DNA from: Treponemataceae bacterium
GTDB taxonomy: Bacteria; Spirochaetota; Spirochaetia; Treponematales; Rectinemataceae
DNA: 64,000 nucleotides
Direction of reading: 5' to 3'
Assembly (NCBI GenBank): GCA_963678065.2
Contig: CAXXVZ010000005.1
Coordinates: 992,001-1,056,000 of the forward strand
The notes below the pieces were generated by a model. The model saw only the letters and a list, made by a program, of their open reading frames with translations. It was not told the origin of the DNA and did no database searches. Positions 2,938 through 62,864 of this stretch are shown here, piece by piece; position 1 is the stretch's first letter; each line of letters begins with the position of its first letter. Made by a program: the position numbers and the translations under genes.

Positions 2938-2986
2938 GTCCGGGTATTCTCCCATCGATGTGGTTTCGGGAAGGTACGATCCGCTG

Positions 2987-3862: not shown

Positions 3863-3884
3863 CGGTTTCTCCTGGCATGGAATC

Positions 3885-3915
3885 CGGGGAGGCTTCCCTT
3901 AGGGGGCCTCCCCCG
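3885..3915 (-). terminator. GC-rich stem-loop between the substrate-binding and permease genes (mRNA-stabilising or attenuating)
   Basis: Imperfect inverted repeat CGGGGAGGCTTCCCTTAGGGGGCCTCCCCCG; no U-tract on the minus strand. Confidence 0.55.
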
Positions 3916-3922
3916 ACGAAAA

Positions 3923-5137: not shown

Positions 5138-5328
5138 ACACCCACTCCTTTGGAATCTGTAATCGACGCGATGCGTCTGGACTTCGACCACTCAAGAATG
5201 CAGGCATAGCCGGATCTCCTGGGCAGGTGATTTTCTCACCGCCCCGATCGAACTGCACACTTTCTGTGCGCGCGGCGAATCGTATCCCTCCGCGTAACGC
5301 ACTCTCTGTATCGTGTGTTCACATCCTG

Positions 5329-37236: not shown

Positions 37237-37367
37237 AGGGGCCGGCCAACGATACGACTGCGAAAACACGGCAGTATTGGAAACGTCTCTGTCGGCTTTG
37301 TCAAAACCCTGCTAGACTGAGGATACAAGCCCGTCCGGCAAGGACAGACAAATCCAAGGAGGAAACC

Positions 37368-38231
37368 ATGAGACTGAAAGCAGCGGCAATCGTCGCGCTC
37401 GCCCTCGCGATCGTCGCGGGATCGGTGTACGCGGATCCCATCAAAACCACCGAATTCGTGGCCTACATCCCGAACGAGGGGCGGATGATTCCCGCCACCG
37501 TGTGCCTTCCCGCGGGGGCTGCAGACCGCATGTATCCCGCCGTCGTTATGCTCCACGGCACAGGCTCCAACAGGGAAGAGGCCGGAAACGGCTACAAAAT
37601 GCTCGCGCCCTACATGGCCGAACACGGCATCGCTTCCATACGGATCGACTTCGCGGGCTCGGGAGACAGCAAAGCCGACTACGTGGAGTACACCTGGACT
37701 TCCGGTGCCTCCGACGCGGCGGCCGCGGCCGAGTTCATAAAGCAGTTCAAAGTTGTCGATCCCGACAGAATCGGAGTCATGGGATGGAGCCAGGGTGGAT
37801 CGGTCGCCATACTCGCGGCCGCCAGATACCCGACCTTCAAAGCCCTCCTCACATGGGCCGGCGCTCTCGACATGTTCGACTACTTCGCGCCCATCTACGA
37901 CGAGGCGAAGGCCAAGGGATTCGCGAAGGCGACCTTCGAGTGGAGAACCCCGCTCAACCTCTCGCTGCAGTGGTTCGCTGACGCGAAGAACATTTCCCTC
38001 CGCAAGGAACTGTCCAATTTCAAGGGTCCCGTTCTCGCGATCGCGGGAAGCGACGATGAGGTCGTTCCGCTCAGCGCCCTCGACGAAATCGTAGCTTCCT
38101 CAGGTGGCTGCGATTCAGCGAAACTCCTCATTCAGGGCGCCGACCACACCTTCAGGGTTTTCACGGGCGATCTTTCCAAATTCAACGAACTGAGGGACGC
38201 GACCACTTCCTGGTTCGGCAAGAAGCTATAA
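37368..38231 (+). CDS. Secreted alpha/beta hydrolase (esterase/peptidase-like)
   Basis: Signal peptide; VMLHG, GWSQG nucleophile, GSDDEVV, GADHTF; SD AAGGAGG. Confidence 0.9.
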   Translation: MRLKAAAIVALALAIVAGSVYADPIKTTEFVAYIPNEGRMIPATVCLPAGAADRMYPAVVMLHGTGSNREEAGNGYKMLAPYMAEHGIASIRIDFAGSGDSKADYVEYTWTSGASDAAAAAEFIKQFKVVDPDRIGVMGWSQGGSVAILAAARYPTFKALLTWAGALDMFDYFAPIYDEAKAKGFAKATFEWRTPLNLSLQWFADAKNISLRKELSNFKGPVLAIAGSDDEVVPLSALDEIVASSGGCDSAKLLIQGADHTFRVFTGDLSKFNELRDATTSWFGKKL

Positions 38232-38232: not shown

Positions 38233-38313
38233 ACAAAGGCGTTCGAAACACCGCGCCTTTGTCGGCCGGCGCGGATCAGGAACGGACACCAAGTCCTGCC
38301 TGATCCCGCCGGC
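38233..38313. terminator. Two adjacent stem-loops between convergent genes
   Basis: ACAAAGGCG...CGCCTTTGT (38233-38262) and GCCGGCGCGGATCAGG...CCTGATCCCGCCGGC (38265-38313). Confidence 0.6.
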
Positions 38314-38326
38314 GATGGCGATGCGC
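38292..38326. repeat. 35-bp direct repeat, left copy
   Basis: AGTCCTGCCTGATCCCGCCGGCGATGGCGATGCGC; 34/35 identical to 51381-51415. Confidence 0.95.
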
Positions 38327-38335: not shown

Positions 38336-39892
38336 CTACTTTTTGTCCGGGAATGAGATCATCCCGTCCCAGCTGTTGAGAACCTTCCCCGCCCGCGCCT
38401 CCTCCTCAGAAAACCAGTGTGCGGTCACACTCTTCAGTTCCGTGAAGAACCGGATGCCGTCCGTCCCCATCGCGTGCAGATCCCCGAAAAACGAGTTCTT
38501 GTGCCCCGTGAACCCGAACACCCCCAGCGGCACGGGAATCCCGACGTTGACCCCCACCTGCCCGCCATGCGTCCGCTTCGCAAACTCCCGCGCGTAGTAC
38601 CCACTCCGCGTGTAGATCACCGAACCGTTCGCATACTCGTTCCCGTTCATGAGCGCAAGTCCCTCCTCGAAGTCCTTCACCCGCTTGATGCACAGAACGG
38701 GTCCGAAGACCTCTTTGTCCCCGATGCTCATCCCCGGTTTCACGTGATCGAAGAGCGTTGGTCCGACATAGAACCCTTTTTCGTAGCCCTTCACGACGAC
38801 ATCCCGTCCGTCCAGCACGAGTTCGGCCCCCTCCTTCACTCCCTTCCCGATCCAGTCGACGACGAATGCGCGGTGTTCCGCGTTCACCACCGGCCCCATC
38901 TGGCTCGACGCTTCGTACGCCGGCCCCACGGTGAGCTCCGACATGAGCTTCGCGAGGATCGCCACGAGTTCATCCGCAATCTCTTCCTCTACAACAACCG
39001 CAGGCAGGGCCATGCAGCGCTCGCCCGCGCAGCCGCAGGCCGAGTTGACGATACCCCGGGCTGTGCGCTCAAGGGCGGCATCCTTGAGCACGAGCGCATG
39101 GTTCTTCGCCTCCGTGAGGCACTGCACCCGCTTCCCCGCGGCCGCCGCCGTGGCGTAGATATGTCTCCCCACCCCCGTCGAGCCCACGAAGGATATCCCC
39201 CTCACATCGGGATGCCCGAGGAGTATCTCCGCCTCATGCCTCGAACAGGTGACCAGATTGAGCACCCCGGGTGGCAATCCCGCCTCGGCCCAGAGCTCCA
39301 TGATCCGCATCGAGGTCTGCGGCGTGAAGCTCGCCGCTTTGATGACCATCGTGTTCCCCGTGGCGATGCACAGGGGCGCCATCCAGCCCATCGGAATCAT
39401 GGCCGGGAAGTTCCAGGGCGCTATCCCCGCGAAGACTCCCAGGCTCTCCATGTACTGCGTCGTGTCGTAGCCCGTCGTGCAGTTCATGAGGGCGGGACCC
39501 TTCATGAGCTGCGGGATACCGCAGGCGAACTCCACGACTTCCGTGACCTTGAGCACATCGCCCATCGCCTCGCCCAGCACCTTGCCGTTCTCGCGGGCGC
39601 AGAGCTGTGTGAGTTCGTCGAGATGTTTGTCCAGAAGGGCCTTCATCCGGAACAGCACCTGCACGCGCTTGTTCGGCGGGGTATCCGACCAGGCGGGGTA
39701 GGCCGCCGCGGCCGAAGCGACCGCCGATTCGACCTCATCTGAGGTGCACTGGGGTGCGCGGGCGATGATTTCGCCCATGGACGGATTGTAACAATCCATG
39801 TAGTTCGTGGTCTTCGAAGTTTTCCACCCGCCATCGACCCAGTACTGAAGCTGCCGCACTCCGGCTACAACATCGGTTTTCGCGTTATCCAT
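38336..39892 (-). CDS. mmsA: CoA-acylating (methyl)malonate-semialdehyde dehydrogenase
   Basis: VEFACGIP, PWNFPAMIP, SFVGST, AKNH, catalytic AGERCMA, VGVNVGIPVP, SFFGDLH. Confidence 0.9.
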   Translation of the reverse strand: MDNAKTDVVAGVRQLQYWVDGGWKTSKTTNYMDCYNPSMGEIIARAPQCTSDEVESAVASAAAAYPAWSDTPPNKRVQVLFRMKALLDKHLDELTQLCARENGKVLGEAMGDVLKVTEVVEFACGIPQLMKGPALMNCTTGYDTTQYMESLGVFAGIAPWNFPAMIPMGWMAPLCIATGNTMVIKAASFTPQTSMRIMELWAEAGLPPGVLNLVTCSRHEAEILLGHPDVRGISFVGSTGVGRHIYATAAAAGKRVQCLTEAKNHALVLKDAALERTARGIVNSACGCAGERCMALPAVVVEEEIADELVAILAKLMSELTVGPAYEASSQMGPVVNAEHRAFVVDWIGKGVKEGAELVLDGRDVVVKGYEKGFYVGPTLFDHVKPGMSIGDKEVFGPVLCIKRVKDFEEGLALMNGNEYANGSVIYTRSGYYAREFAKRTHGGQVGVNVGIPVPLGVFGFTGHKNSFFGDLHAMGTDGIRFFTELKSVTAHWFSEEEARAGKVLNSWDGMISFPDKK

Positions 39893-39931
39893 ATGTCTCT
39901 CCTTCGGCAATACATAAAATCGCCCATAGTC

Positions 39932-40867
39932 TCATCCCAACAGGCGTCGCGCGGTACTCTCTATTTCCCTGGATGTGAGTCCATAGACCTCCAACAGCTC
40001 GTCGTAGTTGCGGGCGGATCTGCCGAACTGGTCCTGCACTCCCACGAAATCGATCGGCGCGTGACGCTCCAATCGCAGGGCCTCGACGATAGCGGAGCCG
40101 AGGCCGCCGTACACCGTATGTTCCTCCGCCGTCACAATCGCCCTCGTCCCGGCGGCGTACGCGATCAGTGCGCCTCTATCGAGGGGCTTTATCGTGCTCA
40201 CGTTCAGGACCCGCGCCTCGATGCCGCTCTTTGCAAGATTCCCGGCCGCTTCGAGCGAGCGCGTCACCATCGTGCCGCAGGCGAAGATCGCGACATCCGC
40301 CCCATCCCGGAGCCGCGTCACTTTCCCGATATGGTAGGGCTCGTCCTCCGGGTACACCCTCGCGAGGTCATTCCGGTTTATCCTGATATAGGCTGGCCCG
40401 GCCCAATTCTCCAGGCACTCCATCATCTTCTCGGTCTCGGCTGAGTCCACAGGACAGAGCACCGCCATGTGGGGAAGCGAGCGCATGATCGCCATGTCCT
40501 CGAGTGACTGGTGTGTTTTGCCATCGCCGTAATCGGAGAGCCCGCAGCTCGAGCCGGCGATCCGCACGGAAAGGTTGGGTATGCAGATCGAGCCCCGGAT
40601 CTGGTCGAATGCCCTGCCGGAGGCAAACACCGCGAAGGAGTTGATGAAAGGGATCTTCCCCGACAGCGCGAGCCCCGCCGCGATGGAGGCCATATTCTGC
40701 TCGGCGATCCCCACGTCGAAGTAGCGGTCGGGGAATCTTTCCTTGAACAGGACGCTCCTCGTCGATTTCCCGAGATCCGCCTCGAGAACGACGACGTTCC
40801 TGTTCCGCGTCCCGAGCGATACGAGCCCGAGACCGTAGGTCTCGCGAATACTGTTAGACTGCGTCAT
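39932..40867 (-). CDS. Transketolase, C-terminal subunit
   Basis: ADLGKST, GIAEQN, RAFDQIR, DGKTHQ, EEHTVYGGLG. Confidence 0.93.
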   Translation of the reverse strand: MTQSNSIRETYGLGLVSLGTRNRNVVVLEADLGKSTRSVLFKERFPDRYFDVGIAEQNMASIAAGLALSGKIPFINSFAVFASGRAFDQIRGSICIPNLSVRIAGSSCGLSDYGDGKTHQSLEDMAIMRSLPHMAVLCPVDSAETEKMMECLENWAGPAYIRINRNDLARVYPEDEPYHIGKVTRLRDGADVAIFACGTMVTRSLEAAGNLAKSGIEARVLNVSTIKPLDRGALIAYAAGTRAIVTAEEHTVYGGLGSAIVEALRLERHAPIDFVGVQDQFGRSARNYDELLEVYGLTSREIESTARRLLG

Positions 40868-40883
40868 GATACAGGCCCTCTCC

Positions 40884-41729
40884 TCAGTCGACGTTGTGCG
40901 ACGCCAAGCGCGCCTCAAGCTCGCGGATAGCCGTTCCCATCTGAACCTCCGTGAGCGCCGCGTTGTGGAAAACCGCGGAATCCTCGGCGTAGGAGATTCC
41001 CTTTCCCTTTATCGTGTCCGCGACGATGACGTACGGTCTGTCGCCGCCCTTGCCCGCTTCGCCCAGCGCGCGGAGTATCTCCTTCACGTCGTGGCCGTCG
41101 ACCGTCGCGACATTCCACCCGAAGGCCCGCCACTTGTCTTCGATGCGCGGGATGTCGAATACCTCGGCTGTCCTGCCCGTGGCCTGGATCCTGTTCCTGT
41201 CCACGATGCCGACGAGGTTGCCGAGCTTGTAAGCGCTCGCGGCCATTGCGGCTTCCCATATCTGGCCCTCCGACAGCTCGCCATCGCCCATTATTACAAA
41301 GACTCGGCTTTTCCGATCGTCGAGCCTCGCCGCGAGGGCCATACCCACGCCGATCGAGAGTCCCTGCCCGAGCGAGCCGGTCACCGCCTCGATGCCTGGC
41401 GTATGAGCCATGTCCGGGTGCCCCTGCAGGATGCCCTCGAGGCTTTTCGTTTTCGCCAACTCGCTCCGCGGAATGACGCCGAGTTCCACGAGAGCCGCGT
41501 ACTGTATGAGCACCGCATGGCCCTTGCTGAGTATGAGGCGGTCCCTGGCCGGGTCGTCGATTCTCTTCGGATCGAATTTCATCTCATGGAAATAGAGCGA
41601 GGCCACGATCTCCGCGAGAGAATTCGAACCGCCCAGGTGGCCGGCCTTCCCCACGCCCATCATCTCGAGGACGTTCATGCGCAGCTTGGTCGCCCTGTCG
41701 TATATTTTCTTCAACTCCCGATCTTCCAC
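40884..41729 (-). CDS. Transketolase, N-terminal (ThDP-binding) subunit
   Basis: GHLGGS, RDRLILSKGH, LQGHP, TGSLGQG, GDGELSEG...DRN; GTG start with SD AGGAG. Confidence 0.93.
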   Translation of the reverse strand: MEDRELKKIYDRATKLRMNVLEMMGVGKAGHLGGSNSLAEIVASLYFHEMKFDPKRIDDPARDRLILSKGHAVLIQYAALVELGVIPRSELAKTKSLEGILQGHPDMAHTPGIEAVTGSLGQGLSIGVGMALAARLDDRKSRVFVIMGDGELSEGQIWEAAMAASAYKLGNLVGIVDRNRIQATGRTAEVFDIPRIEDKWRAFGWNVATVDGHDVKEILRALGEAGKGGDRPYVIVADTIKGKGISYAEDSAVFHNAALTEVQMGTAIRELEARLASHNVD

Positions 41730-41751
41730 GTCGAATCTCCTTTCCTGGACC

Positions 41752-41781
41752 GCGTACAGTTTGCCTGCGTACAGCTTGCCC
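41752..41781. repeat. 15-bp intergenic tandem duplication
   Basis: GCGTACAGTTTGCCT GCGTACAGCTTGCCC (13/15). Confidence 0.6.
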
Positions 41782-41785
41782 GGCC

Positions 41786-42811
41786 TTAAGCGATGTCGAC
41801 GACACCTCTGAAAAGATCCTTCTCGCCCTTCGCCAATTGGGTATACAGCTTCTGGGCCCCGTCGAGGCCGATCCTCTCCTCGGCGAAAGCCCCCGCGAGC
41901 CCGGCGTGTCCCTCGACGAAGCGTATGGCAAAGCGATAGTCGTCGTCGGTATAGCAATAGATGCCTTTTATGGTCTTCGCGCGTACGACAATTTCCTGCA
42001 TGTCGATCTCGATCATCCGCTGCGAATTGCCAATCCACACGATTTCGCCGCCGGTCTTCGCGAGCGAGTTCGCTAACCTCGCCGTCTGGGAGATGCCGAC
42101 CGCCTCGAAGGAGGTGTCGACACCAAGGTCTCCGGTGGCCTGAAGGATGGCGGTTAAAGGATCCTCTTCGCTGAAATTGACGGGTATCGCCCCCAGTCTC
42201 TTCGCCATATCCAGCTTCTTCGGGAACTGATCGATGACGAAAACCCTGGCCGGTCTACGCTGGAGAACCATGGCCAGAACGGCGAGGCCGATCATGCCGC
42301 CACCCACGATCGCGACGGTGTCGCCCTCCTTCACGCCCGACCTCGACACGGCGCCTGAGCCGACCGCGAAGGGTTCCACCAGAGCGGCGGTGGAAAAGGG
42401 AATAGTGTCGGAGATCGGAAAGGCGCTCGAGGCTCTCACGACCAGGTACTCGGCGAGCCCGCCAGTCTTCCCCATGTTGACGCCGACCATCTTTTTGTTC
42501 AGGCAGACACTCGTCATGCCGCGTCGGCACGGCCCGCATGTTCCGCAGTACATGATCGGCTGCACGACGACGCGCTGGCCCAGGCCGAGTGTATCGACAC
42601 CGGGGCCGAGAGCGACGACAGTGCCGGATATCTCATGCCCCATCACCATCCCTGGCTCGCGCCTGCCGGTCTTGCCCGCGAAGCCATGCACGTCGCTGCC
42701 ACAGATGCCCACCGAACCGACGCGGATGAGCACCTCGCCCGCCCTCGCCTCGGGGACCGGGATATCCTCTCCGGAGAATTCGAATGGCCCCTTATAGATC
42801 AAAGCCTTCAT
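41786..42811 (-). CDS. Zn-dependent polyol/sugar-acid dehydrogenase (MDR family)
   Basis: GICGSDVH, MGHE, CGTCGPC...C, EPFAV, GGGMIG. Confidence 0.92.
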   Translation of the reverse strand: MKALIYKGPFEFSGEDIPVPEARAGEVLIRVGSVGICGSDVHGFAGKTGRREPGMVMGHEISGTVVALGPGVDTLGLGQRVVVQPIMYCGTCGPCRRGMTSVCLNKKMVGVNMGKTGGLAEYLVVRASSAFPISDTIPFSTAALVEPFAVGSGAVSRSGVKEGDTVAIVGGGMIGLAVLAMVLQRRPARVFVIDQFPKKLDMAKRLGAIPVNFSEEDPLTAILQATGDLGVDTSFEAVGISQTARLANSLAKTGGEIVWIGNSQRMIEIDMQEIVVRAKTIKGIYCYTDDDYRFAIRFVEGHAGLAGAFAEERIGLDGAQKLYTQLAKGEKDLFRGVVDIA

Positions 42812-42863
42812 GATCTGTTCCTTCGTCGAGCACTGTTTTTTGTTTCGCTCAGGACACGCACGG

Positions 42864-43610
42864 TCAGTTGCTCATCACGATCCCGCCGTTGACGTTCACA
42901 ACCTGACCTGTCACATAATCCGAAAGCGGGGAGGCGAGGAAGAAAGCCACATTCGCCACGTCCTCCACGGTCCCGACTCTTTCCATGGGAATGTCCCTGC
43001 CGGCATCGGGACTCGCGGCCCAGCTCTTCGTCATGTCCGTGAGAATAAAGCCGGGGACCACCGTGTTCACCGTGATTCCGTGCGTCGCCCCATACCGCGC
43101 GTAGGCTTTCGTCAGAGCGTGGATACCGCCCTTCGACGCGGTGTAGTTCACGCCGGCCTTCAATCCGCCAGTCTGCGCCGACATGGACCCGACATTGACA
43201 ATCTTTCCATGTCCCTGCGCCACCATCTCCCTGATGACCATCTGCGAGCAGATGTGCGTCCCCCTCAAGTTGACGGATATGACGCTGTCCCATTCCTCGA
43301 TGCTGATCTGATCGATGGGCTTGTTGCTCCCGAAGATCCCGGCATTGTTCACGAGAATATCGATCCGCGCCGCCTCGCCCATGACTGCCTTCACCATGCA
43401 TTGGATGGATTCCGCTTTCGATATATCCACTTTTATTGCCTTCGCCCCGTATCCTTGCTTCGCGATGGCGACCGCGGACTCAGTGACGCCCGCGAAATCT
43501 ATGTCCGCGAGGTACACGAATGCGCCCTCGGCCGCCAACTTCTCGGCGATCGCCCTGCCGATGCCTTTGGAGGCGCCGGTCACGATGGCCGTCTTGCCTT
43601 TGAGATCCAT
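42864..43610 (-). CDS. SDR family NAD(P)-dependent oxidoreductase
   Basis: TGASKGIG, NNAG, YTASK, PGFILTDM. Confidence 0.95.
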   Translation of the reverse strand: MDLKGKTAIVTGASKGIGRAIAEKLAAEGAFVYLADIDFAGVTESAVAIAKQGYGAKAIKVDISKAESIQCMVKAVMGEAARIDILVNNAGIFGSNKPIDQISIEEWDSVISVNLRGTHICSQMVIREMVAQGHGKIVNVGSMSAQTGGLKAGVNYTASKGGIHALTKAYARYGATHGITVNTVVPGFILTDMTKSWAASPDAGRDIPMERVGTVEDVANVAFFLASPLSDYVTGQVVNVNGGIVMSN

Positions 43611-43636
43611 GGATCCTCCCCGCCCGAGAATGGTTC

Positions 43637-44491
43637 TTATGCTTCCGCGTCCAGCATTCTCTCGATCGCGTCGACGTAATCGAGCGTCGTCGTGAGTTCA
43701 TCGAAAGGCCGCGAGGACGGGATATATTCGAAACCAATGAAGCCTTTGAAACCGATGCCCCGAAGGCTTCGGGTCATCGTCACGAAATCGAAATTCCCCG
43801 CTCCCGGTCGCCGCCTGTTGCTGTCGGAATAGTGGACGTAGGCCAGTCTGTCGCCGCAATCCTCGACGCAGCGGGCGAAATCCCTGTCCTCCAGATTCAT
43901 GTGGTATGTGTCCAACAGAATCCTCAGTCGCTGATTGCCGATCCTGGTCACATATTCCAGAACTTCGTAGGTTGTGTTGAAGTAATTGCACAGGATATGG
44001 CTTATCGCCTCGAGGTCCAGGTTCACATCGAATCTCTCGGCCTTCTCGAGGAGAATTTGGAGGCTCTCCGTCAGTCTTTCCTCGAATATTGAATACCGGG
44101 AGAGGTCGGGAATCTTCCCTCGCAGGAGTCCGATGATGACCGAACTCCCAAGCTTCCCGGCGAGTTCTATCATTCCTTCCAGCCTGACACGCGCGTTGCG
44201 CCTGACCTCGGCATCGTCATCGATCAGCGACAGACCCTCGGCCGCAAACCCCATACCCGTCGAGATCGAGGAGATCTGTACGTGGTTCTCGACACAGCAC
44301 TGCAGCAGCCTGTCGCTGTCCACCAGATCGGGGCTCCGCACATGCAGCTCCGCGAACGCGCATCCGGACCGGGCCACATCCTTCACGTTCTCGTAGAGGT
44401 CCTTCCTGAATACCGCCGGATAGCTGTCTGAAAGGTTCGGGCCTATCGCAACGCTGTACTTCAATCTGTTTGCCATTCCGGTACCCGTCAT
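43637..44491 (-). CDS. Sugar(-acid) isomerase/epimerase, AP-endonuclease-2 TIM barrel, IolO (5-keto-L-gluconate epimerase)-like
   Basis: ELHVRSP, STGMG...GLSL, VIIGLLRG, DTYHMNLE, HYSDSNRRRPGAG; ATGA overlap with the upstream stop. Confidence 0.85.
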   Translation of the reverse strand: MTGTGMANRLKYSVAIGPNLSDSYPAVFRKDLYENVKDVARSGCAFAELHVRSPDLVDSDRLLQCCVENHVQISSISTGMGFAAEGLSLIDDDAEVRRNARVRLEGMIELAGKLGSSVIIGLLRGKIPDLSRYSIFEERLTESLQILLEKAERFDVNLDLEAISHILCNYFNTTYEVLEYVTRIGNQRLRILLDTYHMNLEDRDFARCVEDCGDRLAYVHYSDSNRRRPGAGNFDFVTMTRSLRGIGFKGFIGFEYIPSSRPFDELTTTLDYVDAIERMLDAEA

Positions 44492-45201
44492 CCTTCTCCC
44501 AGATAGTGTTTTCGCACGCTCTCGTCTTGCATCAGGCACTTCGCGTCGGCGGAGAGCGCCACCTCCCCGGTCACCATGACGTAGCCGCGCTGTGCGACAT
44601 TCAGCGCAGCCTTGGAATTCTGCTCCACCAGCAAAACCGTCACCCCGTCGGCATTGATTTTCTTGATGATCTCGAAAATCTCCTTCACGATGAGAGGGGC
44701 GAGACCTAGCGAGGGTTCGTCCATGAGAAGAATCTGGGGTTTCGACATCAGCGCGCGCCCGACCGCGAGCATCTGCTGCTCGCCGCCGCTCAAGGTCCCG
44801 GCCTCCTGCTTCTCCCTCTCCATGAGGCGTGGGAAAAGAGCATAAACATAATCGAGGCCGGCGGCAAAACTGCGATCCTTTCTGAAGGCCCCCAAAAACA
44901 GGTTCTCTTTCGTCGTCAACTTCGGAAACACATGCCGCCCTTCGAGTACGTGGGATATTCCCGACGACACTATGCGCTCTGCCTTCTTCGAGATGATGTT
45001 GTCGCCCTGAAACAGGATCTTCCCGCTCGTGGGCTTCCCCAACAGCCCCGAGACGCAGCGCAGGGTGGTGGTCTTGCCGGCCCCGTTCGAGCCGAGTATC
45101 GCGACGATCTCGCCCTTGCCCACCGAGATGTTCACGCATTTCAGCGCATGGTTGGCCCCGTAATGGAAATGCAAGTCCTCTATCCTGAGTATCTCTTCCA
45201 T
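44488..45201 (-). CDS. LIV-type ABC ATP-binding protein (LivF-like)
   Basis: GSNGAGKTT, LSGGEQQMLA, DEPSLGLAP. Confidence 0.95.
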   Translation of the reverse strand: MEEILRIEDLHFHYGANHALKCVNISVGKGEIVAILGSNGAGKTTTLRCVSGLLGKPTSGKILFQGDNIISKKAERIVSSGISHVLEGRHVFPKLTTKENLFLGAFRKDRSFAAGLDYVYALFPRLMEREKQEAGTLSGGEQQMLAVGRALMSKPQILLMDEPSLGLAPLIVKEIFEIIKKINADGVTVLLVEQNSKAALNVAQRGYVMVTGEVALSADAKCLMQDESVRKHYLGEG

Positions 45202-45203
45202 CG

Positions 45204-45956
45204 CTACTCTCCCCCCAGGTAGGCTTCGATGACGACCGGATTGCGCTGTATTTCTTCCGGCTTGCCCGCGGCAATTTTCTTGCCGTAGTTCATCACATAG
45301 ACGGAGTCCGCCATACCCATGACAATTTTCATGTCGTGCTCGACGAGGAGAATCGTTTTCCCCAGATCCCGGATCTTCAGGATCAAGTCCATCACATCGG
45401 CCTTCTCGCTCGAGTTCATTCCCGCAACCGGTTCGTCAAGAAGGAGCATCGCCGGGTCGCTGGCGAGAGCGCGGGCGATCTCGAGCTTCTTCTGCTGCCC
45501 GTACGGCAGGTTTTTCGCGGTCTCCGAAGCGTAGGCGGCAAGATTTATGAATTCGAGAAGGCTCTTGGCCTTATCCAGCATCTCGCGCTCCTCGCTCCGT
45601 TGCCTCGGTGTGCGAAGGAGGTTGCGCACGACACCGCAGGTACCTTTCGTATGCCGGCCGACCAGGATGTTGTCCAGGACAGTCATTCCGCTGAACAGAT
45701 GGATATTCTGGTATGTCCGCGCGATCCCTTTTTCGTTGACCTGATACGGCTTCAGCCCCGAGATTTTTTCCCCTTCGAAATCGATCGCGCCCTCCATCGG
45801 TGCGAATACGCCGCTTATCAGATTGAACGCAGTCGTTTTTCCCGCGCCGTTGGGGCCGATAAGCGCGGTTATGCTGCTCTTTTCCACAACCATCGTCAGC
45901 CTGTCGACCGCGGTGAGGCCGCCGAACCGGATTGTAACGTCGCGCAGATTCAGCAT
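45204..45956 (-). CDS. LIV-type ABC ATP-binding protein (LivG-like)
   Basis: FGGLTAV, GPNGAGKTT, LPYGQQKKLEIARALA, VIEAYLG. Confidence 0.95.
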   Translation of the reverse strand: MLNLRDVTIRFGGLTAVDRLTMVVEKSSITALIGPNGAGKTTAFNLISGVFAPMEGAIDFEGEKISGLKPYQVNEKGIARTYQNIHLFSGMTVLDNILVGRHTKGTCGVVRNLLRTPRQRSEEREMLDKAKSLLEFINLAAYASETAKNLPYGQQKKLEIARALASDPAMLLLDEPVAGMNSSEKADVMDLILKIRDLGKTILLVEHDMKIVMGMADSVYVMNYGKKIAAGKPEEIQRNPVVIEAYLGGE

Positions 45957-46927
45957 GACGCATTCCTCTTCTTCGCTCCCCACTTCACCAGGCTCAGGAC
46001 GTTAAGGCCCCGCGAGACACCGCCCGGGATATAGACGATGATGAAAAGCAGGAATACTCCGTATACCAGCATCTGGTAGCTCCCGAGCTTCTGCAGGAAT
46101 TCCGAGAGGATGGCAAGCGCTCCGGCGCCGATAATCGGCCCCCAGAAGTTGCCCATTCCTCCGAACAGCAACATGGTCAGGAAAAGCGTCGATTGGCTCG
46201 AACTGAAGCTCTCGGGGCTGATAAAGCCGATGAGATGCGCATACAGCGCGCCGGCCAAACCCGTATAAAGCGCGCTCATCGCGAAGGCCATCGTTTTGTA
46301 TTTCGTGACATTTATCCCCATGCCGTTGGCCGCATGGCTGTCCTCCCGTATCGCGATGAAAGCCCGGCCGGTGCGCGAGCGGACCAGCCGCTGCTTGAGG
46401 AAAAGCAGGAGTACAAGCATTCCGTACACGACATAGAAGTACGAGGTGTTCGACTCGAAGGCGAACGTGCCGATTTTCGGCCTCGGGATGAAGTTCATAC
46501 CCGTATAGCCTTCCGTCAGGCCGCGGGCCTGGGAGACAAACAGATAAATAAGCTCTCCGAATGATATCGTCACGAGGGCGAGAAAATGGTGGACAAGTTT
46601 TACGGCCGACAAGGCGAGCAGGACAGCGACGAGCATCGCGAGGAAACCGCCGATGAAGATAGTCGCAAAGACGGGCAGTCCGAGGTTCCGCGACAGTATC
46701 GCTGAAGTGTAAGCCCCGATGCAGTAGAAGCCCGCGTGCCCGAGGGATATCTGTCCCGAATAACCGAACAGGATGTCGAGTCCCGTTATTACGATGATCG
46801 AGATCCCCGTCGTGCAAAGCAGGAGGACCAAATACGAATCAAAGAAGCATATGACAGGGAGCAGGCCGCCTGCGACCACGAGCAGAAGCGCTTTTACCGA
46901 TGGCGGAGTCTTGGCTCGGATATTCAT
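45950..46927 (-). CDS. LIV-type ABC permease (LivM-like)
   Basis: GYSGQISLGHAGF, GRAFIAIRED. Confidence 0.93.
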   Translation of the reverse strand: MNIRAKTPPSVKALLLVVAGGLLPVICFFDSYLVLLLCTTGISIIVITGLDILFGYSGQISLGHAGFYCIGAYTSAILSRNLGLPVFATIFIGGFLAMLVAVLLALSAVKLVHHFLALVTISFGELIYLFVSQARGLTEGYTGMNFIPRPKIGTFAFESNTSYFYVVYGMLVLLLFLKQRLVRSRTGRAFIAIREDSHAANGMGINVTKYKTMAFAMSALYTGLAGALYAHLIGFISPESFSSSQSTLFLTMLLFGGMGNFWGPIIGAGALAILSEFLQKLGSYQMLVYGVFLLFIIVYIPGGVSRGLNVLSLVKWGAKKRNASC

Positions 46928-46942
46928 CGAAGTACCCTCATG

Positions 46943-47815
46943 TCAGTCACCGTAGACCTTGCCCTTGAACAATCCACGGGGAATGAAAATCAAGAAAATT
47001 ATGAGAATGAAGAAGGAAATGAAGTCCTTGTACATCGACGATATATACGCCGCGGTAAAGGTCTCGATACCACCCAACAGCAGAGAACCCACAATCGCCC
47101 CGTACATATTCCCGTAGCCGCCGATGACTGCTCCCGCGAATCCCTTCGTCCCGATCATCGTGCCCATGTGCGCGCTTACTCCGTATATAGGGCCTATCAG
47201 CACGCCCCCGACCCCCGTCAGCATCGAGGCGATTCCCCATGTTATTCCGGTGGTCATGGAGACATTGATGTTCACCGTTTTCGCGGCCATGGGATCCTGC
47301 GCCGCGGCGCGCATGGAGGTCCCGAGCCTTGTGCGGGTCATGAAGAAATGGAAAACCAGCATTACGACGAGGCCGACCGCTATCGCCATCAAGGCCTCGG
47401 GCGGGACGTTAAAACTTCCCAGCCTGATGCGGTTGACTGCGAAGATCGGGGGGAACTGGAATACATTGCTTCCCCAGATGATCATCGCCAGATTCTTGAA
47501 GATAATCGACAGGGCTATCGTCGCGACAACTATGAATATCGCGTTGGCCCCGGCCTTCTGAAGTTTCCGTATTATGAATTTCTCGATCAGTATTCCGATG
47601 ATATACATGCATAGCATCGTCAGGAGAAGTGCGATGTAGAACGGCAGCTTACAATACTTGTAAAACGTAAGGCCGAGAAAGGATCCCAACATGAGCAGTT
47701 CGCCCTGAACAAAGCTCATCAATCCTGACGCGCTGTATATCACACTGTATCCGAGTGCGACGAGGCCGTAGACGCTGCCGATAACCAGAGCGCCGACAAG
47801 TACTTGGAAGAACAC
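46943..47815 (-). CDS. LIV-type ABC permease (LivH-like)
   Basis: GSVYGLVALG, GTSMRAAAQD, PRGLF. Confidence 0.93.
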   Translation of the reverse strand: MFFQVLVGALVIGSVYGLVALGYSVIYSASGLMSFVQGELLMLGSFLGLTFYKYCKLPFYIALLLTMLCMYIIGILIEKFIIRKLQKAGANAIFIVVATIALSIIFKNLAMIIWGSNVFQFPPIFAVNRIRLGSFNVPPEALMAIAVGLVVMLVFHFFMTRTRLGTSMRAAAQDPMAAKTVNINVSMTTGITWGIASMLTGVGGVLIGPIYGVSAHMGTMIGTKGFAGAVIGGYGNMYGAIVGSLLLGGIETFTAAYISSMYKDFISFFILIIFLIFIPRGLFKGKVYGD

Positions 47816-47888
47816 GAGGGACCCTCCCGTCAGAATCGCGAAAGCCGAGGGGAACCCGCGGCCTTCGCGATGATTTCAAGCGACTGGA

Positions 47889-49040
47889 CTATTTCTTCAC
47901 AGACTTCAGGTAGTCAGAAAGGAGTATGTCTCGCCCGTCCTTGATCGCGAACATCCTCGCCTCGCGGATGCCCTCACCATTCCCGCCGCGGAAGTCGAAG
48001 GTTCCGGCGAGTCCCTCCAGCCCGTAAAGGTTGGCAATCTGGTCGCGGACTGCAGTGCCATCGACGCTCTTGGCGCGCTTGAAGGCTTCCGCGAATATCT
48101 TCACGGAATCGTATGCTCGTAGGGCTGTCTGACTGTCGGGCATTCTGCCAAACTCGGCGACGAAGGCTTTGAAGAAGTCCTCGTGCATTTTGTTGATCGC
48201 CAACTCGGGCTTGGCCGGAATGACGTACGATGAGCCGAAGACCGACCCGTCGGCGTCCCTGCCCGCGACCTCTTTGACGGATGGTACGGAGAGACTTTCA
48301 GGCCCAAACACAAGGCCGCTGAAGCCGTTCAGCCTGGCCTGCTTGACGATCGGTCCCTGGTCGGCGTCGACGCCGAAAGCGATCAAGGCTTCGATCTTCG
48401 AGTTGAGCAGTTTCGTGAGCTGGCCGGTGAAATCCGTGTCGCCGGGGTTGAACCACTCGGCCACAAGCTGGATTCCGTACGTGTCGAGCTGCTTCTTGAC
48501 GTCCTCGACGCCGCCCTTGCCATACTCGTCCGACCGTCCGAGAGCGCCGACCTTCTTGTACTTGAGGTCACTGATCGTCTTCGCGATCTGGATGTTGATG
48601 AGGTTGGTATTCGCCAGGGGCCTGAACAGGTAGGTGTAGCCCTTCTGGAGCCATCCGGGACTCGTACCTATCCCGATTTCGGGCACCTTGGCCTTCTCGG
48701 CGACAGGCGCCGACGCGAGGATATTGCCGGAGTGCAGCGACCCGACGATGCAATTGACCTTGTCCGCGGTTATCATGCGCGTCACGGCCTTCACCGCCTC
48801 CTCGGGGGATGAATTGTCGTTGTAGGCGACGAGGACGAGCTTCTGGCCATTCACGCCCCCCTGGGCGTTGATCTGCTTGATGGCCAGCTCGGCGCCTTGT
48901 CGGGAGGCGATCCCGGAGAGGGACATCGGTCCGGCCAAGGGGCCATAGAAACCGATCTTGATGGCTTCCTGAGCGACGACGGGCATCGCCAGCAAAGCGC
49001 TTGCGCAGAGGCACAACAAAAGGCTTCTTCTCAACTGCAT
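47889..49040 (-). CDS. LIV-type ABC substrate-binding protein
   Basis: Signal peptide; IKIGFYGPLAG, AIKQINAQGGVNG, GDTDFTGQL. Confidence 0.93.
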   Translation of the reverse strand: MQLRRSLLLCLCASALLAMPVVAQEAIKIGFYGPLAGPMSLSGIASRQGAELAIKQINAQGGVNGQKLVLVAYNDNSSPEEAVKAVTRMITADKVNCIVGSLHSGNILASAPVAEKAKVPEIGIGTSPGWLQKGYTYLFRPLANTNLINIQIAKTISDLKYKKVGALGRSDEYGKGGVEDVKKQLDTYGIQLVAEWFNPGDTDFTGQLTKLLNSKIEALIAFGVDADQGPIVKQARLNGFSGLVFGPESLSVPSVKEVAGRDADGSVFGSSYVIPAKPELAINKMHEDFFKAFVAEFGRMPDSQTALRAYDSVKIFAEAFKRAKSVDGTAVRDQIANLYGLEGLAGTFDFRGGNGEGIREARMFAIKDGRDILLSDYLKSVKK

Positions 49041-49095
49041 CTCTACCTCCCTGTGGATAAATTCTTTTGATTTATCCTACAATATGACTAATAGC

Positions 49096-49125
49096 ATAAT
49101 ATGTCCCGTTTTTTCGTTTTGTCAA
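49096..49125 (-). promoter_or_regulatory. Putative internal sigma70 promoter for the transporter/catabolic operon
   Basis: TTGACA (49125-49120)-18-TATTAT (49101-49096); degenerate operator-like TTATCCTACAATA just downstream at about 49072-49084. Confidence 0.55.
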
Positions 49126-49162
49126 ACTCTTTTTTCCGCATCAGAATTGCCACTTGCAGTGC

Positions 49163-50257
49163 TCATTCTCCCCTGATGTCCGGATCAAGAATCAGCGCGT
49201 CGCGGATCAGCGCGACGAGATCGTCGTAGCTCTTCAGGAACTGCCTGAGCGTTCTCCGCGTCGCGCCGAAATAATCGAAGTCCGCCACGGACAGCCCCTT
49301 CTCGTCGTAGGCTCTGCGGAAATCAGGGTACTTTTTCTCCAGTTCCCCCACGATGCGCGGATCGACAGGAACACTCATTCGATCATTCACCGCCACATCG
49401 CTGACATTGAAGCGAAGCTGCCACTCATAGGGGATTGTCATACTGATTTTTCCCCCGATGAACTCCGACCATTGCATGTGATTCCGGTAGGCCGCAGTCA
49501 GCAACCTCGTTCTGTAGCCTCTTTCCGTGTATAAGGCATAGGCTTTCTTCACTACCGCGACTCCCGCCCACTCCAGATTTCCAGGATCCGTAATTATTCC
49601 TTTTTTGTCGGTGATCTTCTTGAGCCAATCATCCAGGCGCCCCGCCATGATCGCGCACATGGGACTCATACCGGCCGCGTCTTTCCCTTCCCGTTCGCGT
49701 CTGCATAATCCTCTTTCGGTGGCCTCCGCCACGGCCAGCGCCTGAGCGACGGTGAAGCAGACGGTGGCGTTGGTACTGACACCGAGGTAGGTGAGCTGTT
49801 CTATGGCATCCATGCCGGCACGTGTCGCGGGCAGTTTAATGTTCAGATTGGGCGCTATGGCGTTCAGACGGAGCGCCTGCTCCACCATCCGGCCGGCATC
49901 GCGGAAGTATTTCGGGTTGGTCTGTACAGAGAGCCGTCCCTTCTTCCCCCTGGACGCCTCGAAGATCGGAAAAAGGAGAGCGGCACCCTTCGCCGCCATT
50001 TCTTCGATGATCGTCCACGCAATCTCATCCTCGGTGCAGGATTGATTGGCTTTTATATATTCCCGTATCCGGGGTTCCCATTCCGGAAACTCCTTTTTGA
50101 GAACCGTCGCGACGATGACAGGATTGGTCGTGGCGCCTACAGCCCCGTTCTTGATGGCGTAACTCATCTCGTCGATCGCGCACGAATCGTTCCAGAACTC
50201 CGTCGGCGTCTTTCGCGACATCAAGGTCAGCGGATAGACCGATGGCATTGCTTCCAT
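49163..50257 (-). CDS. Transaldolase-family protein (non-canonical active site)
   Basis: FWNDSC, GATTNP, Schiff-base IKLPAT, NATVCF, GRLDD, AAYRN; SD GGAGG before ATG 50257. Confidence 0.88.
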   Translation of the reverse strand: MEAMPSVYPLTLMSRKTPTEFWNDSCAIDEMSYAIKNGAVGATTNPVIVATVLKKEFPEWEPRIREYIKANQSCTEDEIAWTIIEEMAAKGAALLFPIFEASRGKKGRLSVQTNPKYFRDAGRMVEQALRLNAIAPNLNIKLPATRAGMDAIEQLTYLGVSTNATVCFTVAQALAVAEATERGLCRREREGKDAAGMSPMCAIMAGRLDDWLKKITDKKGIITDPGNLEWAGVAVVKKAYALYTERGYRTRLLTAAYRNHMQWSEFIGGKISMTIPYEWQLRFNVSDVAVNDRMSVPVDPRIVGELEKKYPDFRRAYDEKGLSVADFDYFGATRRTLRQFLKSYDDLVALIRDALILDPDIRGE

Positions 50258-50336
50258 ACCCCCTCCCCGATCATGGCACAGACATCTCTCCGGGTTACGG
50301 AGAGAGACATAATTGATATTTATTGCACTTATTGTT

Positions 50337-50353
50337 GTATTGTCCGACAATAC
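50337..50353. promoter_or_regulatory. FadR/GntR-type operator
   Basis: Perfect palindrome GTATTGTC-C-GACAATAC in an AT-rich divergent spacer, downstream of minus-strand TTGACA (50386-50381). Confidence 0.8.
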
Positions 50354-50612
50354 TATTATTGTCTATCCTGATTCCGATTCTGTCAAGATTTTTCTTTAAA
50401 AACGGAAATATCATCCAATATATTATCGCATCAGCTTTTATTGATTATCAACTCTCCCGCATCGATCCGAATAATTTTCAGGGAAGGTTCCATTCACGAC
50501 TTTGTTTTTTCGCCAGAAAAAAAGCTTGTGCTATCATGATGATCCGTATTATACTTTCCTAGTCTTAATCCGCGTTAAGCGGTCCAAATCGTTACCGTAT
50601 AGAGGCGCGAAC

Positions 50613-51356
50613 TTGATAGATAACCCAGCCAATATCCAGATCCGCCAGAAAACCATCGTCGAACAAGTCATGGAACGGATCAAGGATTTCGTCGCTTCTG
50701 GGCAGATCAAGCCTGGCGATAAGCTGCCGACAGAACTGGAAATGGCGAAATCGTTTGGCGTCAGCCGCTCCTCCATCCGCGAGGCCATCAAGATATTCAC
50801 GTATCTCGGCGTGTTCGAAACGCAGACAAGGCGGGGCACGATCCTCTGCGACCACTCAAGCATTTCCAACGAGGCCCTCACGTGGACCTTCCTTCTCGGG
50901 AAGAAGGAATTCGATGACCTGATCGATCTCAGAAAGGCCATCGAGCAAGAGGCCTGGATCATGCTCTGCGAAGCGCGGAAAAAGGACAAAGAATCGACCC
51001 AGAGCACAGTCGATAAGCTCAAGGCCGAGGTCGAGAGCATGAAGAGCGCCGTGCAGAGGAAGGAGATGGATGAGCTCGAGGGCGCCGATTATCGATTCCA
51101 CCAGGCGGTGATCGACTCTTCGCAGAATGAGCAATTCATCATTCTCTTCCAGACACTGAAGGCCTTCACTCTCGAGGAGATCCGTAAGTCCAACATCTAC
51201 CGAAACATGTCACCATCGATCTGCACCGAACACATGCAGATGCTGAACGCGCTCGAATCCGGAGACATGGAAAAGGTATTGAAACTATTCCGGGCGCACA
51301 TCAAGAAGACAAAGAACAATATCAAGGCCTTGGTCTATTCCACGAAGAAACAATAG
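50613..51356 (+). CDS. FadR/GntR family transcriptional regulator (FCD domain)
   Basis: GDKLPTELEMAKSFGVSRSSIREA; DYRFHQAV; EHMQML; TTG start inferred from SD AGAGG. Confidence 0.93.
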   Translation: MIDNPANIQIRQKTIVEQVMERIKDFVASGQIKPGDKLPTELEMAKSFGVSRSSIREAIKIFTYLGVFETQTRRGTILCDHSSISNEALTWTFLLGKKEFDDLIDLRKAIEQEAWIMLCEARKKDKESTQSTVDKLKAEVESMKSAVQRKEMDELEGADYRFHQAVIDSSQNEQFIILFQTLKAFTLEEIRKSNIYRNMSPSICTEHMQMLNALESGDMEKVLKLFRAHIKKTKNNIKALVYSTKKQ

Positions 51357-51380: not shown

Positions 51381-51415
51381 AGTCCTGCCTGATCCCGCCG
51401 GCGATGGCAATGCGC
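51381..51415. repeat. 35-bp direct repeat, right copy
   Basis: AGTCCTGCCTGATCCCGCCGGCGATGGCAATGCGC. Confidence 0.95.
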
Positions 51416-62535: not shown

Positions 62536-62864
62536 GATGCACTCCTTTCCGCTTTTGGCCGGACTGCTCGCTATTCCATCTCCATGGAGCAGATACAGGT
62601 ACACCTTGTGAGTATAGGGTAGAATTTTTCGGGCTGCCACGTCTGTTACAGGCTTGAGGTCGGGAAATCGGAATACCGGCAAGGATAACAAGGCGGGAAC
62701 GATGGAGCGGAAAAAGCTGGCCACGATTTTTTCAGGAAGGCTTGGGATGGCGGAGCGCCGCGATGCAAGGCAGGCGGGGCGGGAAAAACGCGGCGGGCCC
62801 GCCCCCGAAAGGTCGGACCCGGACGCTGTCCGATCAGGCAGCCCGCCGCGCCTGCTTCGACCTG

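What the first reader, a model, noticed from the sequence alone, without database searches (positions are those of the whole stretch)
38336..51356. Candidate undescribed kinase-free sugar-acid pathway: transaldolase-like enzyme, split transketolase and CoA-acylating malonate-semialdehyde dehydrogenase
Seen: FadR regulator, transaldolase-family enzyme, LIV-type ABC importer, IolO-like epimerase, SDR, Zn-ADH, two-subunit transketolase and MmsA/IolA, with no kinase, PTS, dehydratase or class II aldolase. Established: sulfoquinovose sulfo-TAL and sulfo-TK pathways cleave unphosphorylated anionic ketoses by TAL or TK. IolA oxidises malonate semialdehyde derived from 2-deoxy-5-keto-gluconate. Thermotoga IolO epimerises a 5-keto-hexonate. 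Inference: an aldonic acid is oxidised and epimerised to a keto-acid, the C3 or C2 ketol unit is removed by TAL or TK, and the carboxy-aldehyde (for example 3-oxopropionate) goes to acyl-CoA. This would be a carboxylate analogue of sulfoglycolysis.
Basis: partly seen in the sequence, partly recalled or inferred. Interest (0 to 1): 0.78.

Follow-up and report, generated by a model that had tools for sequence, protein, structure and literature searches.

The report
Kinase-free sugar-acid cleavage gene block
A spirochaete carries a 13-gene block, also found almost gene for gene in another spirochaete family, that probably imports a sugar acid and splits it without first adding phosphate, using an unusual transaldolase-like enzyme and a transketolase; the sugar it eats is not yet known.

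Summary
The gene list is confirmed: 12 minus-strand genes plus a divergent FadR, with no kinase, PTS, dehydratase or class II aldolase. A 35-bp direct repeat found nowhere else in the genome bounds the block. A 99%-complete genome of another spirochaete family (G1079, no iolD) has the same set; there MmsA is replaced by an acylating aldehyde dehydrogenase plus a carboxyltransferase, which points to malonate semialdehyde as shared product. The transaldolase-like protein has Gln and Met where transaldolases have Glu and Phe. In 26 of 80 homologous loci it sits among inositol genes (iolD/E/G/B), and only 2 of those 25 genomes have IolC over cut-off. It therefore probably cleaves unphosphorylated 2-deoxy-5-keto-gluconate. 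Best model: imported 2-deoxy-aldonates are oxidised, epimerised, then cleaved by this enzyme (C6) or the transketolase (C5) to malonate semialdehyde and acetyl-CoA. All chemistry is inferred from gene context, and the imported substrate is unidentified. Against: the swap is not exclusive (3 of 43 Negativicutes-class iolD genomes have the enzyme, all with IolC), and one family member is sulfoquinovose-induced. Not found in print in ten searches; earlier scan notes already report the inositol swap.

The parts
38292..38326 (.). Left copy of a 35-bp direct repeat bounding the block
   Evidence: 34/35 identical to 51381-51415; only these two full copies in the genome
38336..39892 (-). MmsA/IolA-type CoA-acylating (methyl)malonate-semialdehyde dehydrogenase, 518 aa
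   Evidence: TIGR01722 over cut-off; 61-71% identical to MmsA of five inositol operons, 71% to one in a canonical iolC operon, 40% to a sixth; 98.9% DNA identity to a second copy at C5:987674-989232
39932..40867 (-). Split transketolase, C-terminal subunit, 311 aa; the phosphate-site His of the RSFHR motif is Ser
   Evidence: (6YAJ E=1e-85); motif defined in PMC11659671 section 3.4
40884..41729 (-). Split transketolase, ThDP-binding N-terminal subunit, 281 aa
   Evidence: PF00456; start
41786..42811 (-). Zn-dependent dehydrogenase, 341 aa; candidate aldonate dehydrogenase
   Evidence: (IolM and RspB-type models about 165 bits, below cut-off); 49% to the G1079 gene
42864..43610 (-). Short-chain dehydrogenase, 248 aa; candidate second aldonate dehydrogenase
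   Evidence: FabG-like and hexonate dehydrogenase hits, no specific assignment; 48% to the G1079 gene
43637..44476 (-). Ketose 3-epimerase-like TIM barrel (IolO/TM0416-like), 279 aa
   Evidence: best PDB hit TM0416, E=3e-37, with its metal and acid-base motifs aligned; NF041099 below cut-off
44488..45201 (-). LivF-type ABC ATPase
45204..45956 (-). LivG-type ABC ATPase
45950..46927 (-). LivM-type permease
46943..47815 (-). LivH-type permease
47889..49040 (-). HAAT-family binding protein, 383 aa, of its own subfamily; ligand unknown
   Evidence: PF13458; LivJ model 137 bits against 477 cut-off; near-invariant polar residues H103, N106, E172, R308 among 120 homologues
49071..49083 (.). FadR operator-like site (1 mismatch to consensus), downstream of the second promoter
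49096..49125 (-). Sigma-70-like promoter (11 of 12) ahead of the transporter-to-mmsA unit
   Evidence: consensus match only
49163..50257 (-). Transaldolase-fold enzyme of the Gln/Met subfamily, 364 aa (D24, N45, Q112, K141 Schiff-base Lys, M204, R207, A256, R258)
50339..50351 (.). Palindromic FadR operator-like site; the only exact match to the consensus in the genome
50358..50386 (-). Sigma-70-like promoter (10 of 12) ahead of the transaldolase-like gene
   Evidence: consensus match only
50407..50419 (.). Third operator-like site (1 mismatch), in the divergent region
50613..51356 (+). FadR-type (GntR-FCD) regulator, about 247 aa, divergent
   Evidence: start
51381..51415 (.). Right copy of the 35-bp direct repeat

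Best explanation
A FadR-controlled catabolic block for acyclic 2-deoxy sugar acids. The ABC importer takes up the acid (inferred). The SDR and Zn-dehydrogenase oxidise the next-to-last carbon to a ketone, and the epimerase sets the D-threo configuration that TAL and TK need (inferred from family chemistry). The Gln/Met transaldolase-like enzyme cleaves unphosphorylated 2-deoxy-5-keto-D-gluconate (DKG) through a Lys141 Schiff base, passing the C3 unit probably to glyceraldehyde 3-phosphate, and releases malonate semialdehyde (strongly inferred from inositol operons). The transketolase does the same for a C5 homologue, 2-deoxy-4-keto-pentonate, for example from 2-deoxy-D-ribonate (weaker inference). 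MmsA turns malonate semialdehyde into acetyl-CoA and CO2 (family assignment). No ATP is spent on a kinase. My odds: malonate semialdehyde from a kinase-free cleavage about 0.75; TK as a second cleavage enzyme about 0.5; 2-deoxy-aldonates as the imported compound about 0.45.
For: (1) 26 of 80 TAL-homologue loci hold iolD (four checked by TIGR04377 over cut-off), from five phyla. Example: Parabacteroides sp. PF5-6, iolB-TAL-iolD-mmsA-iolE-iolG with no kinase (L043). IolC is over cut-off in 2 of the 25 genomes, against 7 of 13 iolD spirochaetes from an even sample and 36 of 43 in a second class. (2) 34 of 80 loci carry mmsA (30) or a SauS-like acylating dehydrogenase (4, three with a carboxyltransferase). 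(3) G1079 has FadR, the five ABC genes, epimerase, SDR, ADH, tkN, tkC in the same order, then SauS-like (72% to the inositol-linked L004 copy), carboxyltransferase (65%) and TAL. 11 of 12 of its proteins have the window gene as best hit in G000. G1079 lacks iolD, iolN and the type II GAPDH module. (4) The window TAL falls in a 35-row clade (SH-aLRT 99) with inositol-linked TALs. (5) The window TK groups (97) with the G1079-type TK and a paralogue next to tartronate-semialdehyde reductase; other TK+MmsA or TK+SauS-like pairs occur at L099, L123 and L154. (6) A shared operator: 12 exact matches in 199 kb of 13 module loci against 2 in 2.13 Mb of other loci (consensus taken from these loci, and three matches are one site). 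(7) Transketolases cleave unphosphorylated 5-keto-D-gluconate in vitro (PMC13527115, passages).
Against: No activity, ligand or expression data. No exclusivity in the second class: TAL in 3 of 43 iolD genomes, all IolC-positive and not beside iol genes; the 7 IolC-negative ones use another module. TAL coexists with iolC in L017, L091, a Clavibacter plasmid and probably L059. 15 of the 26 inositol loci are spirochaete MAGs, so they are not independent, and many are incomplete. The full gene set was seen in only one other lineage (1 of 400 class genomes; L108 is near-identical to it), and in 46 of 80 loci neither aldehyde dehydrogenase was seen. The acid-base residue is unidentified. The nearest-clade TAL at L122 sits beside IolN and an IolO-like gene, which fits a 2-hydroxy substrate. 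A family member is sulfoquinovose-induced (PMC11659671). The Zn-ADHs are not orthologous across most module loci. I know no large natural source of 2-deoxy-hexonates.
Confidence: 0.52

Rival explanations
1. The substrate keeps its 2-hydroxyl: a common hexonate (mannonate, gulonate, idonate, altronate type) is oxidised to a 5-keto-hexonate and cleaved to tartronate semialdehyde (TAL) or a C4 aldehyde acid (TK), handled by GarR elsewhere or by a promiscuous MmsA.
For: Distant TAL paralogues and the closest TK paralogue sit beside tartronate-semialdehyde reductase (L100, L124, L155). The epimerase is IolO-like. TAL lies beside IolN at L122 and L039. A D-mannonate oxidoreductase (over cut-off) lies just upstream in G1079 behind an operator-like site. 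GarR is over cut-off in 4 of 5 module genomes.
Against: The block encodes MmsA, not GarR. G1079 uses the same SauS-like/carboxyltransferase pair as the inositol-linked L004. GarR-linked TALs are only about 33% identical, lie outside the main clade and lack M204.
Confidence: 0.2
2. Only the TAL-like enzyme cleaves the acid (one C6 substrate), perhaps as an aldolase releasing free dihydroxyacetone; the transketolase is an ordinary pentose-phosphate helper.
For: Inositol operons with TAL carry no TK (0 of 26 loci), and TK was seen in only 5 of 80 TAL loci. Gln at the Glu position is FSA-like; PMC11659671 proposes an F6P-aldolase role for its member. G000 has two DhaK genes. The window TK keeps both Arg and the Ser of the phosphate site.
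Against: FSA's catalytic Tyr is also missing (Met in 82 of 82). DhaK was found in only 14 of 25 TAL+iolD genomes and not in the closest relative G495. TK is kept in both full copies and was recruited from different clades.
Confidence: 0.15
3. A sulfosugar pathway (sulfo-TK/TAL variant ending in sulfoacetaldehyde).
For: A TAL with matching residues (D23, Q111, K140, N162, T201) is induced on sulfoquinovose in Faecalicatena beside SqwGH (PMC11659671); membership inferred from residue numbering, sequence not seen. The G1079 dehydrogenase scores 534 bits on SauS (cut-off 600).
Against: MmsA and a carboxyltransferase need a carboxyl group to remove. No SQase, SQ isomerase, SqwI or sulfonate exporter in the block. 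The TK lacks the Ala/Asp of the RAFDR motif. The genome has a separate sulfo-TK-like locus with isomerase and CoA ligase (L146).
Confidence: 0.05
4. The ligand is an amino-sugar acid such as D-glucosaminate, oxidised at C5 and cleaved to aminomalonate semialdehyde; or the genes are a mosaic with no single pathway.
For: HAAT-type importer; the Ser, Thr/Ser, Tyr and acidic positions align with an amino-acid binding protein. Other family loci carry aminotransferases.
Against: No aminotransferase or deaminase in the block. MmsA is of the inositol type. Order, operator and content are conserved in G1079, which argues against a mosaic.
Confidence: 0.08

Closest known systems
Sulfo-TAL pathway (SqvA/SftT) and sulfo-TK pathway (SqwGH, SqwI; variant SqwD, SqwKL); bifurcated form in Faecalicatena (PMC12890257 passages; PMC11659671 sections 3.3 part 1 and 3.4)
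   Same: Kinase-free cleavage of an anionic ketose by a TAL or a split TK with GAP as acceptor; a SauS/SqwD-like acylating dehydrogenase in the G1079 copy; TAL and TK in one cluster.
   Different: Ends in a decarboxylating step (MmsA, or carboxyltransferase). The TAL is a 364-aa Gln/Met protein, not the Glu-bearing SqvA type. No SQase, isomerase or exporter. Entry by two dehydrogenases and an epimerase.
Canonical myo-inositol catabolism, IolG-E-D-B-C-J-A (PMC8355322 passages)
   Same: Proposed shared intermediate DKG and shared end step (IolA/MmsA); homologues of the TAL sit in iol operons.
   Different: No ring-opening genes in this block, no IolC kinase, no IolJ aldolase; the keto-acid is proposed to come from an imported acyclic acid.
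Thermotoga IolM-IolN-IolO route (recalled; NCBIfam models)
   Same: IolO-like epimerase and a Zn-dehydrogenase with IolM as top model.
   Different: Both score below cut-off; no IolN in the block or in G1079; that route continues through uronate enzymes and a kinase (recalled).
Classical transaldolase and fructose-6-phosphate aldolase (FSA)
   Same: Fold family, Schiff-base Lys, sugar-binding Asp/Asn/Thr, two Arg of the anion site.
   Different: Neither the TAL Glu/Phe pair nor the FSA Gln/Tyr pair; phosphate-site Ser replaced by Ala; best PDB match only E=4e-19.
Apiose transketolase pathway AptAB and the deoxyribonate BKACE pathway (both recalled, not checked)
   Same: Specialised split TK in a sugar catabolic cluster; deoxyribonate is one candidate substrate.
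   Different: The apiose route needs isomerase and kinase; the known deoxyribonate route uses CoA transfer and a beta-keto acid cleavage enzyme. None of these is in the block.

Membership tests
Classical transaldolase (EC 2.2.1.2) | TAL_FSA fold with Schiff-base Lys and sugar-binding Asp/Asn/Thr | tested here: met
   PF00923; D24, N45, K141, T165 each 82 of 82; alignment to 3R5E
Classical transaldolase (EC 2.2.1.2) | Catalytic Glu and Phe at the acid-base positions | tested here: not met
   Gln112 and Met204 in 82 of 82 homologues; aligned to Glu and Phe of 3R5E; E. coli numbering recalled
Classical transaldolase (EC 2.2.1.2) | Transfers a C3 unit from F6P/S7P | not testable with these tools
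   needs assay
Fructose-6-phosphate aldolase (FSA) | Gln plus catalytic Tyr, about 220 aa | tested here: not met
   Gln present, Tyr position is Met, 364 aa; TIGR00875 62 bits against 246 cut-off; the Gln/Tyr rule is recalled
Sulfo-TAL / sulfo-TK pathway | SQase, SQ isomerase, and SqwI or sulfolactaldehyde enzyme in the cluster | tested here: not met
   none among the 13 genes or in the G1079 copy
Sulfo-TAL / sulfo-TK pathway | RAFDR head-group motif in the transketolase | tested here: not met
   window TK reads R-S-F-S-R at these positions
Canonical myo-inositol pathway | iolG, iolE, iolD, iolB, iolC, iolJ with iolA | tested here: not met
   only the iolA-type gene is in the block; G000's iol operon lies on C3 and no IolC is over cut-off; G1079 has no iolD
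MmsA/IolA (CoA-acylating MMSDH) | TIGR01722 over cut-off; catalytic Cys motif with its Arg | tested here: met
   542 against 448.5 bits; motif aligned to solved MMSDH; one conserved Arg is Lys, as in five inositol-operon copies
IolO 5-keto-L-gluconate epimerase | NF041099 over cut-off | tested here: not met
   191 against 300 bits; still the closest family, with motifs kept
LIV branched-chain amino acid transporter | LivJ/K binding protein and equivalog scores | tested here: not met
   all five genes below the Liv cut-offs; architecture is HAAT-type
LIV branched-chain amino acid transporter | Binds Leu/Ile/Val | not testable with these tools
   needs ligand screen

The most novel reading that the evidence does not exclude
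A general 'carboxy-glycolysis': a widespread Gln/Met transaldolase subfamily and specialised split transketolases cleave unphosphorylated keto-aldonates, with the substrate's own beta-carboxylate standing in for the missing catalytic acid-base. The aldehyde acid then goes to MmsA, SauS-like plus carboxyltransferase, GarR or GAPDH/PGK-like modules. This block would be its dual-length (C5 and C6) deoxy-aldonate version, including a new route for deoxyribonate.
Probability: 0.3. Interest if true: 0.82.

Novelty: new variant of a known kind. Interest (0 to 1): 0.62.

Why it matters
If right, it defines a carboxylate counterpart of sulfo-TAL/sulfo-TK and gives a function to a large unassigned transaldolase-like family (7016 of 8000 scored candidates at E<=1e-20, a count that may include other transaldolases). 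It bears on a stated gap: gut inositol users that lack iolC or iolJ (PMC13617567 for Megamonas MAGs, PMC13311982 for Dysosmobacter); I did not test those organisms. A Schiff-base enzyme with neither the TAL Glu nor the FSA Tyr would be mechanistically new and useful for phosphate-free C-C chemistry. The block shows the back end working without inositol genes, and it supplies a binding protein and a regulator with a defined operator, so the substrate can be found by a ligand screen.

Tried and rejected
Housekeeping transaldolase: rejected; the genome has a separate 225-aa TAL/FSA-type gene and five more long paralogues. Inositol pathway in trans: unlikely; G000's iol operon has its own GAPDH/PGK/malic-enzyme module and G1079 has no iolD or iolN. 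A TK-only version of the block: my reading after (L108 showed no TAL) was overturned when G1079 showed TAL just beyond the carboxyltransferase. Strict TAL/IolC exclusivity: not upheld. DhaK co-occurrence as a test of aldolase versus transaldolase: inconclusive, 14 of 25. Family-level TAL search: 6 of 68 other genomes; none of the five stretches fetched held the block. Metagenome scan with the binding protein: 16 loci, 6 close, five of them too short to show the operon. ESM Atlas returned only 'transaldolase' clusters. PDB searches gave no specific function for the ADH, SDR or binding protein. The upstream alpha/beta hydrolase (37125-38231) lies outside the repeat and is not in the G1079 copy. 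No structure was predicted and no expression data were examined. Literature searches returned no description of TAL or TK cleavage of DKG or deoxy-aldonates; the library lacks most subscription papers, and no supplements were read.


Full report
Observation. The 13 genes are as described: twelve on the minus strand from the transaldolase-like gene (50257) to mmsA (38336), with FadR divergent on the plus strand. Gaps of -7 to 122 bp leave no room for another gene. The genome (G000, 5.27 Mb, 99.9% complete, 6.7% contamination) is a spirochaete; the closest TAL locus is from a Rectinemataceae MAG (79%). A 35-bp direct repeat with one mismatch sits at 38292-38326 and 51381-51415 and has no other full copy in the genome.

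Regulation. Two sigma-70-like promoters lie ahead of the TAL gene and of the binding-protein gene (10 sites found against 5.5 expected, so weak alone). Each is followed closely by a palindromic FadR-type site, and the one at 50339 is the only exact consensus match in the genome. The same site occurs 12 times in 199 kb of 13 related loci and twice in 2.13 Mb of other loci. The consensus was drawn from those loci, three of the matches are one site and one lies inside a gene, so this is support, not a clean test.

Conservation. Among 80 TAL-homologue loci only fragments recur: TK in 5, a related LIV importer in 2. Searching with the binding protein found G1079 (another family, 99% complete; 2 hits among 400 class genomes, the other a 40% hit without the operon). 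G1079 reads FadR, binding protein, livH, livM, livG, livF, epimerase, SDR, ADH, tkN, tkC, a SauS-like acylating dehydrogenase, a carboxyltransferase and TAL. Eleven of its twelve shared proteins have the window gene as best hit in G000; the epimerase hits a paralogue slightly better. Metagenome locus L108 is near-identical to G1079 and counts as the same occurrence; L103 shows TAL directly before the binding protein. G1079 has no iolD, no iolN and no type II GAPDH of the inositol-linked kind.

The product. MmsA passes its family cut-off and is 61-71% identical to five MmsA from inositol operons. In G1079 it is replaced by two unrelated genes that are 72% and 65% identical to those beside TAL and inositol genes at L004. 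An acylating dehydrogenase plus a carboxyltransferase gives malonyl-CoA and then acetyl-CoA (inference from family chemistry). Both solutions fit malonate semialdehyde, and neither fits a sulfonate.

The transaldolase-like enzyme. It keeps the Schiff-base Lys141, Asp24, Asn45, Thr165, Arg207 and Arg258, but has Gln112 and Met204 in 82 of 82 homologues and Ala for the phosphate-site Ser in 81 of 82. It thus lacks both the TAL Glu and the FSA Tyr (rule recalled; alignment). In 26 of 80 loci it lies with iolD, in five phyla (15 Spirochaetota, 4 Bacteroidota, 3 Acidobacteriota, 3 Bacillota, 1 Myxococcota); 19 of these also show mmsA or a SauS-like gene. IolC is over cut-off in 2 of the 25 genomes, with a partial copy in a third (L059), against 7 of 13 in an even spirochaete sample. 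DKG is 5-deoxy-D-fructuronate, has TAL donor stereochemistry and would give malonate semialdehyde (established chemistry, my knowledge). A quick tree of 93 rows (fragments under 250 aa dropped except L122; the small TAL and a few near-duplicate loci left out) puts the window enzyme in a 35-row clade with inositol-linked copies. Against this: in a second class, 3 of 43 iolD genomes have the enzyme, all with IolC and away from iol genes; it coexists with iolC at L017, L091 and on a plasmid; and its nearest clade includes L122, beside IolN. Whether it is a transaldolase or an aldolase is open: DhaK was found in 14 of 25 genomes.

The transketolase. Inositol operons with TAL have no TK (0 of 26), so TK is not needed for DKG cleavage by TAL. 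The window TK has Ser for the His of the phosphate motif and groups with the G1079-type TK and a paralogue beside tartronate-semialdehyde reductase. It is separate from the TK clade found inside other inositol operons. Those operons show that TKs can take unphosphorylated keto-acids: all 7 IolC-negative iolD genomes of the second class have type II GAPDH and PGK genes in the operon, and 5 have a split TK there, several with malic enzyme, malate racemase or tartrate dehydrogenase-like genes. Removing two carbons to leave a C3 aldehyde acid implies a C5 donor, hence 2-deoxy-4-keto-pentonate. This is the weaker half of the model; a linear C8 route using both enzymes is not excluded.

The front end. 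Two dehydrogenases and a ketose 3-epimerase-like protein (closest to TM0416/IolO) fit oxidation at the penultimate carbon and correction of the neighbouring centre. A D-mannonate oxidoreductase upstream in G1079 and an RspB-like ADH at L029 fit hexonate C5 oxidation but do not separate 2-deoxy from 2-hydroxy acids. The binding protein has near-invariant polar residues and an Arg yet keeps positions that align with amino-acid binders. The imported compound remains unidentified.

Literature. Ten searches found no account of this chemistry. PMC11659671 (abstract, section 3.4, section 3.3 part 1 of 2, discussion passages) describes a sulfoquinovose-induced TAL with matching residue numbers and leaves it unassigned, suggesting an F6P aldolase. 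Read as passages only: PMC13311982 and PMC13617567 (inositol users lacking iolJ or iolC; no mention of transaldolase), PMC8355322, PMC12482443, PMC12130570, PMC13527115 (TK cleaves 5-keto-D-gluconate) and PMC12890257 (sulfo pathways). The Thermotoga, apiose and deoxyribonate pathways are recalled. No supplements were read. Earlier scan notes, seen after my own analysis, already report the TAL-for-IolC/J swap and the TK-malate route; none matched this non-inositol block.

Verdict. A real, conserved, co-regulated block that works like sulfo-TAL/sulfo-TK but fails their membership tests. It is a new variant of a known kind, with a well-supported end product, a plausible cleavage step and an unknown substrate. 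Confidence 0.52 for the full model; interest 0.62.

Noticed in passing
L096 (G000:C3:361200-381100); L083, L086/L140, L128-L135: Inositol operons without IolC that carry type II GAPDH-like and PGK-like genes, often a split transketolase, and malic enzyme, malate racemase or tartrate dehydrogenase-like genes: a likely TK route from DKG to D-malate with ATP gain. Seen in all 7 IolC-negative iolD genomes of the class sampled. Already in earlier scan notes.
   Followed up: partly
window 3-5191 and L097 (G000:C5:975000-994900): A second LIV importer-ADH-TAL-TAL-mmsA cluster about 42 kb away; its mmsA is 98.9% identical in DNA over the ORF only, suggesting recent duplication or gene conversion. The two TALs are distant (34-36%) Gln-type paralogues.
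   Followed up: partly
L146 (G000:C4:76000-95900): TK, RpiB-type isomerase, SauS-like dehydrogenase and ADP-forming CoA-ligase-like subunits: resembles the sulfo-TK variant ending in sulfoacetate.
   Followed up: partly
L100, L101, L124, L155: Distant TAL paralogues or a TK paralogue next to tartronate-semialdehyde reductase(-like) genes, suggesting 2-hydroxy versions of the same chemistry.
   Followed up: partly
L039:7131-11772 and L122: TAL beside IolN-type ring hydrolase (with mmsA at L039): possible deoxy-cyclitol (quercitol) route.
   Followed up: no
L022-L026, L003, L013: TAL beside class III or DegT aminotransferases, M81 peptidase and lactonase: possible amino-sugar or aminocyclitol feeders.
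   Followed up: no
L029, L032, L033, L097, L100, L101: URO-D-fold proteins of unknown role recur beside this TAL family.
   Followed up: no
G000 whole genome: About a dozen split-transketolase pairs, six long TAL-like genes and four mmsA copies in one genome.
   Followed up: partly
L085 (G265): A complete spirochaete genome with iolD but no IolC over cut-off, no hit to this TAL and no GAPDH/PGK module in the stretch read: lower pathway unexplained.
   Followed up: no
window 58726-62724: A 1332-aa ORF with discoidin-like and formylglycine-generating-enzyme-like repeats by eye; not scanned.
   Followed up: no
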